DNA from: Octopus vulgaris | Lineage: Eukaryota | Length of the DNA stretch: 64,000 nucleotides | NCBI GenBank assembly: GCA_951406725.2 | Contig: OX597814.1 | Coordinates: forward strand, 176,018,001-176,082,000 | Direction: 5' to 3' | Shown: in pieces, positions 6,251-47,910 of the stretch | Numbering within the stretch: the stretch's first letter is position 1 | How the letters are laid out: every line of letters starts with the position of its first letter | Translations under genes and position numbers: made by a program | The notes under the pieces: model-generated | Databases searched by the model: none | Seen by the model: the letters and a program-made list of their open reading frames with translations, nothing else | What the model was told of the DNA's origin: nothing

Positions 6251-7763
6251 TAGAATAATAATAATAATAATGAGGAGGAGGAGGAGGATAATAATAACAA
6301 TGATAATAATAATAATAACAATAACAGTGGTGGCGGTAGTGGCAGTGGGAGTGGTAGTAGCATTAGTAGTAGTGTCATTACTTCTTAAGTACCTTTAGTG
6401 TTATCGAATGATATTGAATCTAATGCATTGCTATCACCAAAGTTTCTAGAATTTTACAAATCCACCCCATCGTGATCATCGTCGTTGTCGTCGTCGTTAT
6501 CGTCATGGTCGTTGTTGTATTCATCATTATCATCATTGTCATTATTAGGATCATCATCATCATCATCATCATCACTATTACAAACATAAGAGGTATGTTC
6601 ACCGAAGACTAGGTCTATGGATTTGCTTGCACCATATTTCTGACAATAGTTACGGCACACTCCTTGAAGTCATTATTATGACCTCGTAAAGAATATATTG
6701 TTTCTTTCGAAACAGGAAGAACATATTGTGAATGAGAATTGTCAATTATCTCATCTCTGCAAAGTGATGCTTGCATACTTGTTTACGTATGAATACAGGT
6801 GCCTATGTATGTACATGTGTGTGTGTATGTGCGCAAATGTATGTAAACAGAGATCTGTGAAGGCGTGTACATTTGTGCTCGTGTGCATTTGGGTACATCA
6901 TTCTTATATACAAGCAGATATACCGCACACGCGCGCACATAAAAGCCCGTCGTATATTTATGTATCTCTGTGTGACTTTGTGTCTGTGTTTCTCCTCCCC
7001 ACCACCGCATGTTACCGTTTGACAACTGTTATTGGTGTGTTTACATCTCTATAACTTAGCAGTTCGCCAAACGTATCTAATAGAATAAGTACTAGGCTTG
7101 AGACATAAATCCTGAGGTCGATTTGTTTGACTAAAACTCTTCAGGGCTGAACTCCAGCATGGCCGCAATCGAATGACTGAAACAAGTAAAAGAATAAAAG
7201 AATATATATGTATATATATAATATGTTTGTATGTATTTTTATATATATTTATTTATTTACATACACATCAATTTACATATGTGTATTGATAATAAGTACA
7301 TATATAGACGTAGTTGTGTGGCAAGAAGCTTGTTTACTATCCACATGGTTCTGGGTTCAGTCTCACTGTAAGGCACCTTCGGAAGGTGGTTTCTACTATA
7401 GCCTCAGGCCGATTAAGGCCTTGTGAATGGATTTGATAGACAGAAACTGAAAGTAGGCCGTCATGTGTGTGTGTGTGTGTGTGTGTGTGCATGCATGCGC
7501 GTGCATGGGTATGTGTGCGTGCGTCTTTATGTTTGTGCTTGTTCCCCACCACATCTTGACAACCGGTATCGGTGTGTTTACGTCCCTGTAACCTAGCAGT
7601 TCGGCGAAAGTCCGTATAGAATAAGAACCAGGTTTTTAAAAAAGTAATGGCGTCGATACATTCGACTAAAAATTCTTCAAAGCGGTACCCCAGTATGACC
7701 ACAGACTAATAACTGAAACAAGTAAAAGATAAAGGACAGAATATATATACATACATATATGCG

Positions 7764-38137: not shown

Positions 38138-38887
38138 ATAACAACCTGCCAACTATTATACCAGATTGAAGGCAATTACTGTAACAGTACTTTGGAGACT
38201 CTTAACACTGCTTGTCACAGCTGACTTGTTTGTAAAATGCAGTCAGGACGTGAAGATAATTTGGAACCTTGTAATATATATATATATATATATATATATA
38301 TGGTTCCGGATTCAGTCCCACTGCATGGCACCTTCGGCAGGTGTCTTCTACTATATATGTATCGCTTGATAACCGATGTTGATGTGTTTACGACTCCGTA
38401 ACCTAGCGGTTCGGCAAGAGATACCGATAGAATAGGTACTAGGCTTACAAAAAATAAGTCCTGGAATCGATTTGTTCGACTAAAGGTGGTGCTCCAGCAT
38501 CACTGCAGTTAAATGACTGAAACAAATAAAAGAATAAAAGAATATATATATATATATATACACGACAGTTTTCTTTCAGTTTCCGTCTACCAAATCCACT
38601 CATAAGACTTTAGTCGGCCCATGTCTATAGTAGAAGACACTTGCCCCGAGTGCCATGCTTACCAATCCAAAACCATGTGGTTGGTAAGCGAGCTACTTAC
38701 CACACAGCCACTCCTATAAATATATATATATATATATATATAATAAATATAAGAGAGTGGTCACTATATGGCTCACTCTAGCACCAGTTAATCCAAAAGG
38801 TTTCAACCACAAAAAATACATGCTTCCCATGAAAGTCAGTACGATTGTTAGCTCACACGGACAGGGCAAATAAAAAATAACAAAATA

Positions 38888-38983
38888 CAGATTATTTTGG
38901 GACAATTGTTTCGCTATTAATGAATTAAATGTAATTTTACTTACAATAAAATCCACTTGTAGCTCTTCGGCCAAAACTATCTG
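38888..38983 (-). ncRNA. Type I hammerhead motif, CCGAAGA (U4C) core variant
   Basis: Same stems as the canonical copies; core reads CCGAAGA. Confidence 0.78.
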
Positions 38984-39422
38984 GATGAAATCCACTCAAC
39001 CACACGCCAGATTTTACCATAACGATAAATACGCGTGTGGTTCAATTGATTACATCCGACGTTATAATTCAAATGCCCCAACTAACAGCGCGCCAAACTT
39101 TCACGGAAAACAAATACAGCATTTAGAAATAAATGCAGCATAATTATAATTAATTAATAAGGGTGAGAGAATTAGATACTAATTTAATAGTATATCTATT
39201 CTACACCAAGTGGCCTAGTGCTCCGAGAAACCTGGATTATTATAATATTTTATAATATATTATAATATTTTTACAAAATAAATATAAGAGAGTGGTCACT
39301 ATATGGCTCACTCTAGCACCAGTTAATCCAAAAGGTTTCAACCACAAAAAATACATGCTTCCCATGAAAGTCAGTACGATTGTTAGCTCACACGGACAGG
39401 GCAAATAAAAAATAACAAAATA

Positions 39423-39518
39423 CAGATTATTTTGGGACAATTGTTTCGCTATTAATGAATTAAATGTAATTTTACTTACAATAAAATCCACTTGTAGCTC
39501 TTCGGCCAAAACTATCTG
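39423..39518 (-). ncRNA. Type I hammerhead motif, CCGAAGA (U4C) core variant
   Basis: Same stems; core CCGAAGA. Confidence 0.78.
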
Positions 39519-39955
39519 GATGAAATCCACTCAATCACACGCCAGATTTTACCATAACGATAAATACGCGTGTGGTTCAATTGATTACATCCGACGTTAT
39601 AATTCAAATGCCCCAACTAACAGCGCGCCAAACTTTCGGGAAAACAAATACAGCATTTAGAAATAAATGCAGCATAATTATAATTAATTAATAAGGGTGA
39701 GAGAATTAGATACTAATTTAATAGTATATCTATTCTACACCAAGTGGCCTAGTGCTCCGAGAAACCTGGATTATTATAATATTTTATAATATATTATAAT
39801 ATTTTTACAAAATAAATATAAGAGAGTGGTCACTATATGGCTCACTCTAGCACCAGTTAATCCAAAAGGTTTCAACCACAAAAATACATGCTTCCCATGA
39901 AAGTCAGTACGATTGTTAGCTCACACGGACAGGGCAAATAAAAAATAACAAAATA

Positions 39956-40051
39956 CAGATTATTTTGGGACAATTGTTTCGCTATTAATGAATTAAATGT
40001 AATTTTACTTACAATAAAATCCACTTGTAGCTCTTCAGCCAAAACTATCTG
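39956..40051 (-). ncRNA. Type I hammerhead ribozyme, canonical CUGAAGA core
   Basis: Plus strand reads GCTCTTCAGCCAAAA, i.e. UUUUGG-CUGAAGA-GC on minus; rest matches the 42296 copy. Confidence 0.86.
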
Positions 40052-40489
40052 GATGAAATCCACTCAATCACACGCCAGATTTTACCATAACGATAAATAC
40101 GCGTGTGGTTCAATTGATTACATCCGACGTTATAATTCAAATGCCCCAACTAACAGCGCGCCAAACTTTCACGGAAAACAAATACAGCATTTAGAAATAA
40201 ATGCAGCATAATTATAATTAATTAATAAGGGTGAGAGAATTAGATACTAATTTAATAGTATATCTATTCTACACCAAGTGGCCTAGTGCTCCGAGAAACC
40301 TGGATTATTATAATATTTTATAATATATTATAATATTTTTACAAAATAAATATAAGAGAGTGGTCACTATATGGCTCACTCTAGCACCAGTTAATCCAAA
40401 AGGTTTCAACCACAAAAATACATGCTTCCCATGAAAGTCAGTACGATTGTTAGCTCACACGGACAGGGCAAATAAAAAATAACAAAATA

Positions 40490-40585
40490 CAGATTATTTT
40501 GGGACAATTGTTTCGCTATTAATGAATTAAATGTAATTTTACTTACAATAAAATCCACTTGTAGCTCTTCAGCCAAAACTATCTG
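40490..40585 (-). ncRNA. Type I hammerhead ribozyme, canonical CUGAAGA core
   Basis: Plus strand GTAGCTCTTCAGCCAAAAC at 40561; same stems as the 42296 copy. Confidence 0.86.
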
Positions 40586-41023
40586 GATGAAATCCACTCA
40601 ATCACACGCCAGATTTTACCATAACGATAAATACGCGTGTGGTTCAATTGATTACATCCGACGTTATAATTCAAATGCCCCAACTAACAGCGCGCCAAAC
40701 TTTCACGGAAAACAAATACAGCATTTAGAAATAAATGCAGCATAATTATAATTAATTAATAAGGGTGAGAGAATTAGATACTAATTTAATAGTATATCTA
40801 TTCTACACCAAGTGGCCTAGTGCTCCGAGAAACCTGGATTATTATAATATTTTATAATATATTATAATATTTTTACAAAATAAATATAAGAGAGTGGTCA
40901 CTATATGGCTCACTCTAGCACCAGTTAATCCAAAAGGTTTCAACCACAAAAATACATGCTTCCCATGAAAGTCAGTACGATTGTTAGCTCACACGGACAG
41001 GGCAAATAAAAAATAACAAAATA

Positions 41024-41119
41024 CAGATTATTTTGGGACAATTGTTTCGCTATTAATGAATTAAATGTAATTTTACTTACAATAAAATCCACTTGTAGCT
41101 CTTCGGCCAAAACTATCTG
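41024..41119 (-). ncRNA. Type I hammerhead motif, CCGAAGA (U4C) core variant
   Basis: Same stems; core CCGAAGA; innermost left-arm copy. Confidence 0.78.
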
Positions 41120-41227
41120 GATGAAATCCACTCAATCACACGCCAGATTTTACCATAACGATAAATACGCGTGTGGTTCAATTGATTACATCCGACGTTA
41201 TAATTCAAATGCCCCAACTAACTCATC

Positions 41228-41323
41228 CAGATAGTTTTGGCCGAAGAGCTACAAGTGGATTTTATTGTAAGTAAAATTACATTTAATTCATTAATAGCGA
41301 AACAATTGTCCCAAAATAATCTG
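41228..41323 (+). ncRNA. Type I hammerhead motif, CCGAAGA (U4C) core variant
   Basis: Core at 41241; GUC ends at 41310; starts 5 nt after the inversion junction. Confidence 0.78.
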
Positions 41324-41761
41324 TATTTTGTTATTTTTATTTGCCCTGTCCGTGTGAGCTAACAATCGTACTGACTTTCATGGGAAGCATGTATTTTTTG
41401 TGGTTGAAACCTTTTGGATTAACTGGTGCTAGAGTGAGCCATATAGTGACCACTCTCTTATATTTATTTTGTAAAAATATTATAATATATTATAAAATAT
41501 TATAATAATCCAGGTTTCTCGGAGCACTAGGCCACTTGGTGTAGAATAGATATACTATTAAATTAGTATCTAATTCTCTCACCCTTATTAATTAATTATA
41601 ATTATGCTGCATTTATTTCTAAATGCTGTATTTGTTTTCCGTGAAAGTTTGGCGCGCTGTTAGTTGGGGCATTTGAATTATAACGTCGGATGTAATCAAT
41701 TGAACCACACGCGTATTTATCGTTATGGTAAAATCTGGCGTGTGATTGAGTGGATTTCATC

Positions 41762-41857
41762 CAGATAGTTTTGGCCGAAGAGCTACAAGTGGATTTTATT
41801 GTAAGTAAAATTACATTTAATTCATTAATAGCGAAACAATTGTCCCAAAATAATCTG
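41762..41857 (+). ncRNA. Type I hammerhead motif, CCGAAGA (U4C) core variant
   Basis: Core at 41775; GUC ends at 41844. Confidence 0.78.
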
Positions 41858-42295
41858 TATTTTGTTATTTTTTATTTGCCCTGTCCGTGTGAGCTAACAA
41901 TCGTACTGACTTTCATGGGAAACATGTATTTTTGTGGTTGAAACCTTTTGGATTAACTGGTGCTAGAGTGAGCCATATAGTGACCACTCTCTTATATTTA
42001 TTTTGTAAAAATATTATAATATATTATAAAATATTATAATAATCCAGGTTTCTCGGAGCACTAGGCCACTTGGTGTAGAATAGATATACTATTAAATTAG
42101 TATCTAATTCTCTCACCCTTATTAATTAATTATAATTATGCTGCATTTATTTCTAAATGCTGTATTTGTTTTCCGTGAAAGTTTGGCGCGCTGTTAGTTG
42201 GGGCATTTGAATTATAACGTCGGATGTAATCAATTGAACCACACGCGTATTTATCGTTATGGTAAAATCTGGCGTGTGATTGAGTGGATTTCATC

Positions 42296-42391
42296 CAGAT
42301 AGTTTTGGCTGAAGAGCTACAAGTGGATTTTATTGTAAGTAAAATTACATTTAATTCATTAATAGCGAAACAATTGTCCCAAAATAATCTG
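42296..42391 (+). ncRNA. Type I hammerhead ribozyme with canonical CUGAAGA core; predicted cleavage after C42378 (GUC)
   Basis: Stem I CAGAU-a-GUUUUGG (42296-42308) pairs with CCAAAAU-a-AUCUG (42379-42391); CUGAAGA 42309-42315; stem II GCUA 42316-19 / UAGC 42363-66; GAAA 42367-70; stem III A-C-aauu-G-U; C42378. Confidence 0.88.
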
Positions 42392-42830
42392 TATTTTGTT
42401 ATTTTTTATTTGCCCTGTCCGTGTGAGCTAACAATCGTACTGACTTTCATGGGAAGCATGTATTTTTTGTGGTTGAAACCTTTTGGATTAACTGGTGCTA
42501 GAGTGAGCCATATAGTGACCACTCTCTTATATTTATTTTGTAAAAATATTATAATATATTATAAAATATTATAATAATCCAGGTTTCTCGGAGCACTAGG
42601 CCACTTGGTGTAGAATAGATATACTATTAAATTAGTATCTAATTCTCTCACCCTTATTAATTAATTATAATTATGCTGCATTTATTTCTAAATGCTGTAT
42701 TTGTTTTCCGTGAAAGTTTGGCGCGCTGTTAGTTGGGGCATTTGAATTATAACGTCGGATGTAATCAATTGAACCACACGCGTATTTATCGTTATGGTAA
42801 AATCTGGCGTGTGATTGAGTGGATTTCATC

Positions 42831-42926
42831 CAGATAGTTTTGGCCGAAGAGCTACAAGTGGATTTTATTGTAAGTAAAATTACATTTAATTCATTAATAG
42901 CGAAACAATTGTCCCAAAATAATCTG
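42831..42926 (+). ncRNA. Type I hammerhead motif, CCGAAGA (U4C) core variant
   Basis: Core at 42844; GUC ends at 42913. Confidence 0.78.
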
Positions 42927-43364
42927 TATTTTGTTATTTTTTATTTGCCCTGTCCGTGTGAGCTAACAATCGTACTGACTTTCATGGGAAGCATGTATTT
43001 TTGTGGTTGAAACCTTTTGGATTAACTGGTGCTAGAGTGAGCCATATAGTGACCACTCTCTTATATTTATTTTGTAAAAATATTATAATATATTATAAAA
43101 TATTATAATAATCCAGGTTTCTCGGAGCACTAGGCCACTTGGTGTAGAATAGATATACTATTAAATTAGTATCTAATTCTCTCACCCTTATTAATTAATT
43201 ATAATTATGCTGCATTTATTTCTAAATGCTGTATTTGTTTTCCGTGAAAGTTTGGCGCGCTGTTAGTTGGGGCATTTGAATTATAACGTCGGATGTAATC
43301 AATTGAACCACACGCGTATTTATCGTTATGGTAAAATCTGGCGTGTGATTGAGTGGATTTCATC

Positions 43365-43460
43365 CAGATAGTTTTGGCCGAAGAGCTACAAGTGGATTTT
43401 ATTGTAAGTAAAATTACATTTAATTCATTAATAGCGAAACAATTGTCCCAAAATAATCTG
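43365..43460 (+). ncRNA. Type I hammerhead motif, CCGAAGA (U4C) core variant
   Basis: Core at 43378; GUC ends at 43447. Confidence 0.78.
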
Positions 43461-43898
43461 TATTTTGTTATTTTTTATTTGCCCTGTCCGTGTGAGCTAA
43501 CAATCGTACTGACTTTCATGGGAAGCATGTATTTTTGTGGTTGAAACCTTTTGGATTAACTGGTGCTAGAGTGAGCCATATAGTGACCACTCTCTTATAT
43601 TTATTTTGTAAAAATATTATAATATATTATAAAATATTATAATAATCCAGGTTTCTCGGAGCACTAGGCCACTTGGTGTAGAATAGATATACTATTAAAT
43701 TAGTATCTAATTCTCTCACCCTTATTAATTAATTATAATTATGCTGCATTTATTTCTAAATGCTGTATTTGTTTTCCGTGAAAGTTTGGCGCGCTGTTAG
43801 TTGGGGCATTTGAATTATAACGTCGGATGTAATCAATTGAACCACACGCGTATTTATCGTTATGGTAAAATCTGGCGTGTGGTTGAGTGGATTTCATC

Positions 43899-43994
43899 CA
43901 GATAGTTTTGGCCGAAGAGCTACAAGTGGATTTTATTGTAAGTAAAATTACATTTAATTCATTAATAGCGAAACAATTGTCCCAAAATAATCTG
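43899..43994 (+). ncRNA. Type I hammerhead motif, CCGAAGA (U4C) core variant
   Basis: Core at 43912; GUC ends at 43981. Confidence 0.78.
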
Positions 43995-44433
43995 TATTTT
44001 GTTATTTTTTATTTGCCCTGTCCGTGTGAGCTAACAATCGCACTGACTTTCATGGGAAGCATGTATTTTTTGTGGTTGAAACCTTTTGGATTAACTGGTG
44101 CTAGAGTGAGCCATATAGTGACCACTCTCTTATATTTATTTTGTAAAAATATTATAATATATTATAAAATATTATAATAATCCAGGTTTCTCGGAGCACT
44201 AGGCCACTTGGTGTAGAATAGATATACTATTAAATTAGTATCTAATTCTCTCACCCTTATTAATTAATTATAATTATGCTGCATTTATTTCTAAATGCTG
44301 TATTTGTTTTCCGTGAAAGTTTGGCGCGCTGTTAGTTGGGGCATTTGAATTATAACGTCGGATGTAATCAATTGAACCACACGCGTATTTATCGTTATGG
44401 TAAAATCTGGCGTGTGGTTGAGTGGATTTCATC

Positions 44434-44529
44434 CAGATAGTTTTGGCCGAAGAGCTACAAGTGGATTTTATTGTAAGTAAAATTACATTTAATTCATTAA
44501 TAGCGAAACAATTGTCCCAAAATAATCTG
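44434..44529 (+). ncRNA. Type I hammerhead motif, CCGAAGA (U4C) core variant
   Basis: Core at 44447; GUC ends at 44516. Confidence 0.78.
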
Positions 44530-44807
44530 TATTTTGTTATTTTTTATTTGCCCTGTCCGTGTGAGCTAACAATCGTACTGACTTTCATGGGAAGCATGTA
44601 TTTTTTGTGGTTGAAACCTTTTGGATTAACTGGTGCTAGAGTGAGCCATATAGTGACCACTCTCTTATATTTATTTTGTAAAAATATTATAATATATTAT
44701 AAAATATTATAATAATCCAGGTTTCTCGGAGCACTAGGCCACTTGGTGTAGAATAGATATACTATTAAATTAGTATCTAATTCTCTCACCCTTATTAATT
44801 AATTATA

Positions 44808-44964
44808 TATATATATATATATATATACATAATAATAATAATAATGATAATAATAATAATAATAATAATAATAACAGTAACAATAACAATAATAATAAAA
44901 ATAATAATAATAATGATGATGATGATAATAATAATGACAATAATAATAATAATAATAATAATAA

Positions 44965-45062
<98 letters not shown>
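44808..45062. repeat. (TA)n, (AAT)n and (TAG)n microsatellite directly right of the ribozyme array
   Basis: Directly visible. Confidence 0.95.
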
Positions 45063-45063
<1 letters not shown>

Positions 45064-47910
45064 TTTGTGTATCATGCTTAATGTAAATACATCATTGAAA
45101 GGCAACTTTTACCGTGATATTTTTACGGTGATAACTCTATTAGACATGCTGCCTTTAAAGACAGTATATATATGTCCTCATGTCTGCAGTGGCTGGTGAG
45201 AACACCAAAGCATTTCTATCTTGTTGAACGTCGTCAATAGCCGACCATCTGTTTAGAATATGCAGCCAACCACATGTTTAGAATATGTAGGAAACCAGTG
45301 AATATACATTCAATGGTCTTACAAATAGATGGATATAACGGTTTGTATTATATGCATGCATACATACACATATACATACATGCAAGCATACATGCATACA
45401 TACATACTTACATAAAAACATACATGTGTACATACATACAAGCACAATTCCTTCACTAATTGTTTTAAGTGCCTTTGTTGCCAGAGCAGACATGGACGTT
45501 GTCTTTGCCCCTTACCTATTTCTTTACTACCCACAAGGGGCTAAACATAGAGGGACAAACAAAGACAGACAAACGGACTAAGTCGATTATATCGACTCCA
45601 GTGCGTAACTGGTTCTTATTTAATCGACCCCGAAAGGATGAAAGGCAAAGTCGACCTCGGCGGAATTTGAACTCAGAACGTAACAGCAGACGAAATACCG
45701 CTAAGCATTTTACCCGGCGTGCTAACGTGTCTGCGTGCTCGCCGCCTCTGCCCCTTACCCTTGACTCGAGTGTACAACTAAGATGTGATATCAAAGGGAA
45801 ATGTAAATTAATTAAAATTTACATTTCCAGTGGTCTAACGTGTAACAAATTTAGTCAACAAGACTATATATTAGTCATACGATATAGTGTATATTTAAAC
45901 ACATAAGGAATCCCCTTATAGGAATTCAACACGCTAGAATGTCCAGGAACCTAGATGGTAAAATGACTTTCATTTTTCAATTCGTTCCTGTCGAATTTTA
46001 TCCCTAATTTTTGTGGTTATAGAACCTAGCTGTTCTTTCCAGCGTGTTGAATTCCTACCAAGATGTGATAGGTAGAGAGAGAAAGGCAGAGAGGAGGAGA
46101 GAGATCTGTATCAACACTCGGATGGTAATCATTTACAGCTCAACAGACTGGAGCAACGTGAAGTGAAGAGCCTTGTTCAAGAATACAACGCACCACCTGA
46201 GTCAAGCATGAAACCCGCATCCGAACATTTTAACCATTAGGCCACACACTTTATGCATAAATGTATGTATGAATGCATATATGCATATATGTGTATATGT
46301 GTGTGTGTGTATAGATAACTTCATGCAACTTAGAGATCTGTTGGCTCGTCGGGCATTTGTCAACTCACTCGTTTGTGAGTGTCTCTGTGTATTTGTGAAT
46401 GTGTGTGCAGTATGTGTGAATGTGTGTGTGTTTGTGTGTGTGCACGCGCGAGTATGTGTGTTTGTTTGTGTGTAGTATGTTTATATGTATAGCAGTGATA
46501 TTGGTTTGCAGACTATTAGTTTATATGTAATTACCAGTCATTTGCACACATTGATTGATATGTTTTGCCCTGACAAACAGCAGGTATACGGACTTTATGT
46601 GATAAACACGGTTACTAGATTGCTTGTCACAATCCAGTAATCACGTCTATCACGAAAGTAGTGAAAGCCGGTCCCTGATGACTTCTTATCAATACACCAT
46701 CGTATTTTGAAATAGATTTCTTCGTGAGATTTTCTGAATGTGAATTCAGTAGTGTGTGGCATACTTTTTAAAATATTTTTTGTATTATATTTTAAATAGT
46801 AGATGGAGATGCTTTTAGGTGTCTACTAATAATGAAAGTTTCTAATATTGTTAAATGTCATATTTGTAGTTTTTTTTAAATATTTTTTTTTGTTTACGAG
46901 CGCTACCGACAATTAGTTCATGAAAAGTATCAATGATTATTTGAACAAAATATTATAGATTTTCAGAGATATTTATTTAGATCTGTTTGAGTATGGAGTG
47001 CTGACATTTGAGATTAAAAGATTTATTCAGTTCTATTTAGTGGCTTACAAATACCAGTCGTGTGAAGCATTTTCGTGACCAACTATTTCTCCATCCTGCT
47101 CTCTACTCTTCATCTGTTCTGTATTTGCAGCGAAAGATTGCCGCCCTCTTTAGTTTGTCCTTGATAATTGAAATCACATGAATGTTTTGATTCTTTTTTT
47201 TTTTTTTTTCACATATTTTGATCTTTAGTTTCCTTGTTATGAATCGTTTCTTATTTAGAAAAAAAAACCCAGCAATTTTGACGCAAAGGTTTAGTTGAGA
47301 CCATCGAACTTACTAATTGACACTGGTGCTTCGTATATATCGTTCCCGAAAGGATGCAAAGCAAATTTAACCGCAGGTAGATTTGACCTCAGAACGAAAT
47401 AACCGGAGGTTTTATTTTAGCTTTAAGAAGTATTCAGTGGATACTCTGCCACGCATCGTCATTGATGTATTTGGCCTCTCAGAAGTGTTTCGGGTCTTTC
47501 AGCATCACTCTGTTTCTTGTCCAGAAATATTACAAGGCAGTTTTATCCCATTCTCCTACAATTTTATCAATCCACCGCCCTATCACTGATATTTGCTCAC
47601 ACAAATATCCTGAATTGTATATTATAGTAAATATGGCATTATTTAGTTACGTCTGTTGATTTTTACCTATCCTGCTTCTGTCGTTGATAACATTATTACC
47701 TATTAAATAAAGGTAGGTCCTTAAACACGAACATCCTCCCAAAAAATTCGGGGAATTAGAGGTTTTGGTTTATCTGTTTGAACGCCGACCTTTTTGACAT
47801 CAGACCTTTTGATGTTTCTTTCATTCTGCCCTACACTTTCATTGTTTATGTGTGAAAGCATATAGGTTTGTATATGTAATTGTAACATTTCTATCGCTCC
47901 CTCAGCATCC

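What the first reader, a model, noticed from the sequence alone, without database searches (positions are those of the whole stretch)
41024..41323. Array is a giant imperfect palindrome with a 5'-to-5' junction and both RNA 3' ends facing (TA)n: twin-priming-like insertion from a circular or multimeric template
Seen: the left arm (4.6 units, minus sense) and right arm (6.7 units, plus sense) join directly at 41222/41223. The paired arms end at 41124 and start at 41223, leaving a 98-bp unpaired spacer. The outer ends stop at different AT-rich positions of the unit (...CTCTTATATTTATT|ATATA on the left, ...ATTAATTAATTATA|TATA on the right), each with microhomology to (TA)n. Point variants are not mirror-symmetric: CUGA occurs in left units 3 and 4 but only right unit 3, and GGAAAC and ATCGCAC occur only on the right. 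Established: L1 twin priming gives this polarity, and Penelope elements often carry inverted pLTR copies. Inference: both ends of a break in a (TA)n tract primed reverse transcription on the same repetitive or circular RNA at different registers, and the two cDNAs were joined. Transcription through the locus could also form a ~2.4-kb dsRNA hairpin and feed small-RNA silencing.
Basis: partly seen in the sequence, partly recalled or inferred. Interest (0 to 1): 0.72.

Follow-up and report, generated by a model that had tools for sequence, protein, structure and literature searches.

The report
Retrozyme copied into both cut ends
The 6-kb palindrome is one young insertion of an abundant 534-base non-coding repeat with a hammerhead-ribozyme motif; head-to-head copies of this family almost always end at two different fixed points, one per side, which likely records a borrowed Penelope-type enzyme copying one repeat RNA into both ends of a cut in a TA microsatellite.

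Summary
The palindrome is as described: a 4.65-unit minus arm and a 6.71-unit plus arm of a 534-bp repeat, joined bluntly at 41222/41223 between (TA)n tracts. It is not peculiar to this locus. The unit is a hammerhead retrozyme with about 2,700 unit copies in the genome. Of 77 loci examined, 41 are simple head-to-head insertions. In 38 of them one arm ends at unit position ~248 and the other at ~378; none uses one site twice. The two arms of a locus usually share one haplotype (30 of 38 identical). Inner ends are scattered, unlike L1 twin priming, and arms run through the predicted ribozyme cut without scars. A young autonomous Neptune-like Penelope element in the same genome shows the same rule (19 of 20) with a ~30-nt tail. 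So the ends are fixed start sites, not arbitrary registers. The best reading is known Penelope geometry (inverted copy, tail at one end) on a probably circular retrozyme RNA, with a 130-nt tail. The partner enzyme, the RNA circle and read support for this junction were not shown. The scan's notes report the same rule for other repeat families in this genome.

The parts
38715..38741 (.).
38742..41222 (-). Left arm: 4.65 tandem units in minus sense, 3' end at the short site A (unit position 246; family range 243-251)
41125..41222 (-). 98-bp inner part of the left arm (unit 437-534) left unpaired in the innermost palindrome register
41222..41223 (.). Blunt 5'-to-5' junction of the two arms (unit 437 | unit 1), no microhomology, no insertion
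41223..44807 (+). Right arm: 6.71 tandem units in plus sense, 3' end at the long site B (unit position 378)
42303..42384 (+). Type I hammerhead motif with canonical CUGA core (right unit 3): stem I, long stem II, GAAA, palindromic stem III, predicted cut after unit position 88; 9 of the 12 copies in this array carry CCGA instead
   Evidence: no Rfam hammerhead match; cleavage untested
44678..44807 (+). 130-nt 'tail': unit segment between site A and site B, present at the outer end of the right arm only
44808..44826 (.). Right half of the (TA)n target tract, followed by an (AAT)n tract

Best explanation
The array is one insertion of a 534-bp non-coding hammerhead repeat (a retrozyme) whose head-to-head copies end at two fixed sites, one per side, and it was likely made by a borrowed Penelope-like RT/GIY-YIG enzyme that cut a (TA)n tract and primed reverse transcription from both DNA ends on the same, probably circular, RNA. 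Shown: the anatomy, the family, the two fixed ends used one each, the shared haplotype of the two arms, the scattered blunt inner junctions, the seamless passage through the predicted ribozyme cut, and the same end rule in an autonomous Penelope-like element of this genome. Inferred: each target end starts at its own internal site (A at ~248, B at ~378); both cDNAs run several times round the template and stop independently; their free ends are joined with little or no microhomology. When one cDNA is almost empty the result looks like a one-armed copy. The palindrome is a by-product of insertion, not a functional hairpin.
For: Family: 2,693 exact copies of a 26-base unit word in the 2.8-Gb genome; the first 100 fall in 39 loci, about 1,000 loci by extrapolation. 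Target: (TA)n on both sides in 65 of 76 loci against 11.7% background per side. End rule: 38 of 41 simple two-arm loci are A+B, 3 have one odd end, 0 are A+A or B+B (p = 7e-12 for 38 of 38 at 0.5). All 34 one-armed loci end at A (15) or B (19), and 7 keep a 7-15-nt vestige of the opposite end class. Same template: arms identical in 30 of 38 loci; mean 0.14% within against 1.3% between loci; in 14 of 38 no arm from another locus is as close. Either arm can be the longer (A longer in 16 of 39; lengths uncorrelated, rho 0.16). 254 crossings of the predicted cut site with one indel nearby; 2 of 121 5' ends near it against 4.8 expected. 20 distinct haplotypes among 28 arrays of 3 or more units; 11 of 17 long arrays have no segregating substitution. 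Autonomous element with 775-aa ORF, RT plus GIY-YIG, 99.5-100% identical copies in (TA)n: 19 of 20 two-arm loci pair the short end with a ~30-nt-longer end. Literature: inverted 5'-truncated copy, 30-40-bp tail at one end and (TA)n bias (PMC8557442); two internal RT starts equal to the tail, both strands extended, predicted dimer (PMC11167929).
Against: No autonomous element homologous to the unit was found: best blastn E = 0.02-0.9 in AT-rich stretches among 50 GIY-YIG loci. This locus is a mosaic (position 20: 9 C, 3 T; a private G at 523 in 3 copies across both arms), which one monomeric circle does not explain; 6 of 17 long arrays have such segregating sites. The hammerhead stems are nearly invariant, so there is no covariation, Rfam does not score the motif, and most copies here carry U4C, which lowers activity in vitro (PMC3088659). 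Five of six loci with both arms under one unit have inner ends within 24 nt, which fold-back could also give. In vitro the anole enzyme showed no strand difference in start site. Forty of the 77 loci were picked for a near-identical full unit and the others for a word inside the tail.
Confidence: 0.78

Rival explanations
1. Same two-ended Penelope-type priming, but on an uncleaved linear multimeric transcript of a source array rather than on a circle.
For: Seamless passage through the cut site fits uncleaved RNA equally. The window array is a mosaic, and the last two monomers of both arms share variants in register from the 3' end. Its core is mostly U4C. In vitro the anole element used unprocessed RNA as its main substrate (PMC11167929). 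Some haplotypes are shared by 2-5 loci.
Against: Most long arrays are internally uniform yet differ between loci (20 haplotypes in 28 arrays; 11 of 17 without a segregating site), which needs a one-unit bottleneck. Arrays reach 12.8 units. The variant order of the two window arms does not match beyond two monomers.
Confidence: 0.25
2. Fold-back: one cDNA is primed at the target, folds on itself, is copied back as DNA and is cut and joined at the second AT-rich site.
For: Arms share a haplotype. Five of six short two-arm loci are near-perfect hairpins with inner ends 5-24 nt apart, against about 15% expected.
Against: In longer arrays inner ends are scattered. The returning strand passes many A and B sites, so same-site pairs should be common, yet 0 of 38 occur. 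Either end class can be the longer arm. Variants in the window are not mirrored.
Confidence: 0.1
3. L1-style twin priming on one linear RNA at opportunistic microhomologies.
For: Same polarity; blunt or short-microhomology junctions (14 blunt, 21 with 1-5 nt, 5 with insertions, 1 scrambled among 41).
Against: Ends are fixed; the two arms copy overlapping sequence; inner ends do not abut the other arm's start (3 and 2 of 39, 3.7 expected each); no poly(A) tail is seen at the ends.
Confidence: 0.03
4. Assembly or fold-back read artefact, or a later inversion inside a satellite array.
For: No contig from four public runs spans the junction (uninformative). Some unit variants here match the family majority and could be polishing errors.
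Against: Flanks differ, arms are unequal and not mirrored. Dozens of loci on many contigs share the polarity (always 3' ends outward's junctions), the end rule and locus-private haplotypes; an artefact or later inversion would not choose sites A and B.
Confidence: 0.03

Closest known systems
Insertion architecture of endonuclease-bearing Penelope-like elements (Craig et al. 2021, PMC8557442; passages read)
   Same: Partial tandems, an inverted 5'-truncated copy, a tail at one end only, (TA)n bias, hammerhead in the repeat.
   Different: No ORF (longest stop-free stretch 89 codons); tail 130 nt instead of 30-40; both arms are multi-unit arrays; the paper says 'often', whereas here the pairing is counted as 38 of 38 classifiable.
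Anole Poseidon element PAc (Frangieh et al. 2024, PMC11167929; parts 1-3 of 4 read, supplements not read)
   Same: Two internal RT start sites bracket the tail; both target strands are cut and extended; AT-rich target; hammerhead with protein-assisted cleavage.
   Different: PAc starts lie in an AC-rich stem-loop 30-40 nt apart, with no strand preference in vitro. Here the sites are AU-rich, 130 nt apart, and used strictly one per end in genomic copies; the template is a non-autonomous repeat.
Metazoan non-LTR retrozymes (Cervera and de la Pena 2020, PMC7229834, passages read; Li, Clavereau and Pollet 2026, 10.64898/2026.07.22.740005, parts 1-3 of 5 read)
   Same: Low-GC tandem repeat with a type I hammerhead in each unit, highly self-paired RNA (z = -6.7), many dispersed arrays, proposed Penelope dependence.
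   Different: Unit 534 bp (170-400 nt in Cervera; 51-972 in Li). Head-to-head arms and fixed paired ends were not found in the text I read ('inverted' and 'target site' have 0 hits in PMC7229834). Circular RNA and cleavage are untested here, and no homologous pLTR was found.
L1 twin priming
   Same: Inverted plus forward segment with both RNA 3' directions facing the target.
   Different: In L1 the two segments are adjacent, non-overlapping parts of one RNA and one starts at poly(A). Here they overlap, repeat and start at two fixed internal sites.

Membership tests
Metazoan non-LTR retrozyme | Tandem repeat of a short, low-GC, non-coding unit, dispersed in many arrays | tested here: met
   534-bp unit, about 32% GC, longest stop-free stretch 89 codons, 2,693 copies of a unit word
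Metazoan non-LTR retrozyme | Type I hammerhead motif in each unit | tested here: met
   Stems I and II fold as predicted; CUGA core in 210 of 238 sampled copies; no Rfam hit and no covariation, so the call rests on motif and fold
Metazoan non-LTR retrozyme | Self-cleavage of the RNA | not testable with these tools
   Needs in vitro transcription; 9 of 12 cores in this array are U4C
Metazoan non-LTR retrozyme | Expression as linear and circular monomer RNA | tested here: inconclusive
   No holder on record as RNA was listed and only contigs were served; stable predicted fold; indirect genomic support for a one-unit template
Penelope-type insertion signature | Inverted 5'-truncated copy next to the main copy | tested here: met
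   42 of 77 loci have a head-to-head junction; 16 of 39 in the consecutive, less biased set
Penelope-type insertion signature | [quoted passage not shown] | tested here: met
   38 of 41 simple two-arm loci A+B, none same-site; tail is 130 nt, not 30-40
Penelope-type insertion signature | Microsatellite or AT-rich target | tested here: met
   (TA)n on both sides in 65 of 76 loci, background 11.7% per side
Penelope-type insertion signature | Sequence relationship to the pLTR of an autonomous partner | tested here: inconclusive
   No significant match among 50 GIY-YIG loci; these cover only a few families of 6,136 candidates
Autonomous Penelope-like element | ORF with RT and GIY-YIG domains | tested here: not met
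   No ORF in the unit; none linked to the arrays among 19 flanking ORFs scanned
L1 twin priming | Inverted and forward segments adjacent and non-overlapping on the RNA | tested here: not met
   3 and 2 of 39 inner ends near the other arm's start, 3.7 expected each; arms overlap

The most novel reading that the evidence does not exclude
Penelope-type insertion is an obligately asymmetric two-primer reaction: one enzyme dimer holds a single RNA circle, sets each cut DNA end on a different start site (here 130 nt apart), and both subunits roll round the same circle by strand displacement. The genome then records rolling-circle reverse transcription of a ribozyme circle from both ends at once.
Probability: 0.4. 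Interest if true: 0.68.

Novelty: new member of a known kind. Interest (0 to 1): 0.4.

Why it matters
How Penelope-like elements make their tandem-plus-inverted insertions and tails is stated as open (PMC8557442), and retrozyme mobilisation by these elements has rested on co-occurrence and pLTR similarity (10.64898/2026.07.22.740005). A young family of about 1,000 loci with a strict one-site-per-end rule, a shared template for both arms and an unusually long tail gives countable predictions for an in vitro assay, and two young intact Penelope-like ORFs in the same genome are candidate enzymes. The locus itself is an ordinary member of its family, the architecture is known qualitatively, and the scan has already noted the rule for other repeat families in this genome.

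Tried and rejected
Rfam scan of 38500-45200: no hammerhead match, five chance hits. An apparent two-unit periodicity in long arrays was an artefact of my k-mer chaining; it vanished on alignment, so there is no evidence for dimeric circles. Public runs: no RNA holder listed; laying contigs of four runs on the array and on the junction gave no spanning piece, which says nothing either way; the empty allele could not be tested because the target is a microsatellite. Search for an autonomous partner: flanking ORFs are unrelated LINE or transposase fragments; blastn of the unit against 50 GIY-YIG loci gave only AT-rich matches at E 0.02-0.9; two pattern searches for related hammerheads gave family variants and one isolated motif. 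Junction microhomology averages 1.2 nt in 35 clean junctions against 0.79 by chance: at most a slight excess. Stopping at the ribozyme cut site was rejected. No gene was identified around the array: window ORFs were listed but not scanned. Paper searches for the paired-end rule in retrozymes found only the qualitative Penelope descriptions; the library lacks most subscription papers, and supplements were not read.

Full report
Observation. The anatomy is as reported. A 534-bp unit is repeated 4.65 times on the minus strand (38742-41222) and 6.71 times on the plus strand (41223-44807) (unit numbering = window 41757-42290). The junction is blunt. The innermost register leaves a 98-bp spacer, and the paired arms match at 2,376 of 2,383 bases. 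Both outer ends run into (TA)n, and the named variants are not mirrored.

The unit. It has no coding capacity (longest stop-free stretch 89 codons). On the plus strand of the right arm it carries a type I hammerhead motif: extended stem I, core, long stem II, GAAA, a palindromic stem III and a predicted cut after position 88. Rfam does not score it and the stems are nearly invariant, so there is no covariation. The whole unit folds far better than shuffles (z = -6.7). The family core is canonical CUGA in 210 of 238 sampled copies. The CCGA variant is a small sub-lineage, 34 copies at 10 loci, 9 of them in this array. U4C is reported to lower activity in vitro but to suffice in a viroid (PMC3088659, passage). 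A 26-base unit word occurs 2,693 times in the 2.8-Gb genome, and its first 100 matches fall in 39 loci, so about 1,000 loci by extrapolation. An earlier scan note names the animal as an octopus; I did not test that. This fits a metazoan non-LTR retrozyme (PMC7229834; bioRxiv 10.64898/2026.07.22.740005).

The family test. I examined 77 loci: the window, 39 best matches to the unit (biased to young full units) and 37 further consecutive loci on contig 1 (need a word inside the tail). (TA)n flanks both sides in 65 of 76 loci, against 11.7% background per side (one locus had too short a match). Forty-two loci have a head-to-head junction, including 16 of the 39 consecutive ones. One (L038) is compound and was set aside. 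Of the other 41, 38 have one arm ending at site A (243-251) and the other at site B (about 370-378). Three have one odd end (L052, L056, and L075, which the script had labelled A and I re-classed). None uses the same site twice (p = 7e-12 at 0.5). All 34 one-armed loci end at A (15) or B (19). Seven of them keep a 7-15-nt vestige of the opposite class at the 5' side; one (L104) has a same-class match that reads as a duplicated internal piece.

Template. The two arms of a locus share a haplotype: identical in 30 of 38 loci, 0.14% apart on average against 1.3% between loci, and in 14 of 38 no arm from another locus is as close. Either class can be the longer arm (A longer in 16 of 39), and lengths are uncorrelated. 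Inner ends are scattered. Only 3 and 2 of 39 lie near the other arm's start, against 3.7 expected, so L1-type twin priming (recalled) does not fit. Junctions are blunt (14), carry 1-5 nt of microhomology (21), have insertions (5) or are scrambled (1); the mean of 1.2 nt is slightly above the chance value of 0.79. Arms cross the predicted cut site 254 times with one nearby indel, and 5' ends are not enriched there (2 of 121, 4.8 expected), so the template is a closed circle or an uncleaved multimer. Twenty haplotypes among 28 arrays, with 11 of 17 long arrays free of segregating substitutions, favour a one-unit bottleneck, that is a circle. Against this, the window array is a mosaic: position 20 is C in 9 and T in 3 copies, and a private G at 523 occurs in 3 copies across both arms. 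A multimeric template, conversion between arms or polishing could each explain it; I could not decide. Five of six loci with both arms under one unit have inner ends within 24 nt, which fits stalling at a common barrier or fold-back.

Candidate enzyme. The genome holds many GIY-YIG loci, among them two young families with intact RT plus GIY-YIG ORFs of 781 and 775 aa. Both have a cysteine linker like that described for Neptune and Nematis. The 775-aa family inserts in (TA)n and has a hammerhead with the CCGAAGA core. In 19 of its 20 two-arm loci the short end is paired with an end about 30 nt longer; the twentieth ends internally (40 loci chosen for having the short end, plus L154). So the rule belongs to Penelope-type machinery in this genome. 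Neither family is significantly similar to the 534-bp unit, so the partner is unidentified.

What is known. Inverted 5'-truncated copies, a 30-40-bp tail often at one end only, and (TA)n bias are described for Penelope-like elements (PMC8557442, passages). The tail equals the distance between two internal RT starts, and the anole enzyme cuts and extends both strands and is predicted to dimerise (PMC11167929, parts 1-3 of 4). The retrozyme papers, as far as read, do not describe head-to-head arms or paired ends; supplements were not seen. Unreviewed scan notes report the same rule for 359-, 490-, 558- and 565-bp families in this genome. I reached it independently before opening them.

Artefact check. 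No contig from four runs spans the junction, which is uninformative. Unequal arms, different flanks, unmirrored variants and the family-wide rule make an artefact unlikely.

Verdict. Real, and an ordinary member of its family: a retrozyme inserted with Penelope geometry. What it adds is a counted, strict one-site-per-end rule, a shared template for both arms and a 130-nt tail, all testable in vitro. Interest 0.40.

Noticed in passing
L154:2621-5783; L157-L196: Very young autonomous Penelope-like family (775-aa ORF, RT plus GIY-YIG, Neptune-like cysteine linker, copies 99.5-100% alike, 1,181 first-look candidates) with a CCGAAGA hammerhead core, (TA)n targeting, a ~30-nt tail, an internal (AT)n run at the long end and a long open-looking region upstream of the main ORF.
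   Followed up: partly
L137-L153: Second young Penelope-like family (781-aa ORF, 46% identical to the first over 577 aa) whose 3' region holds tandem repeats with CCAAT-like and TGACGTC words; no hammerhead found by my descriptor; ends in (TA)n.
   Followed up: partly
window 38742-44807: The array is a mosaic of CCGA and CUGA units, with a private variant at unit 523 shared by both arms in the second-last monomer; most other long arrays are uniform.
   Followed up: partly
site-A ends, e.g. L032, L037, L044, L062: Several A ends are followed by one to three ATATT-like repeats before the (TA)n, resembling unit positions 255-262: possible slippage or reiterative synthesis at priming.
   Followed up: no
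L038:2705-6455; L072:4685-5361: Compound loci: L038 has two head-to-head junctions with a 229-bp foreign spacer between them; L072 has a separate A-ended arm next to a two-arm insertion, sharing a (TA)n tract.
   Followed up: no
L093:6256-7767: The right arm is heavily scrambled by small deletions in one monomer, while the left arm is clean.
   Followed up: no
L145 (minus strand, about position 6868 of the reverse complement); L198:1491-1551: Hammerhead motifs with a similar long stem II or stem III but otherwise unrelated sequence, probably other retrozyme families or remnants.
   Followed up: no
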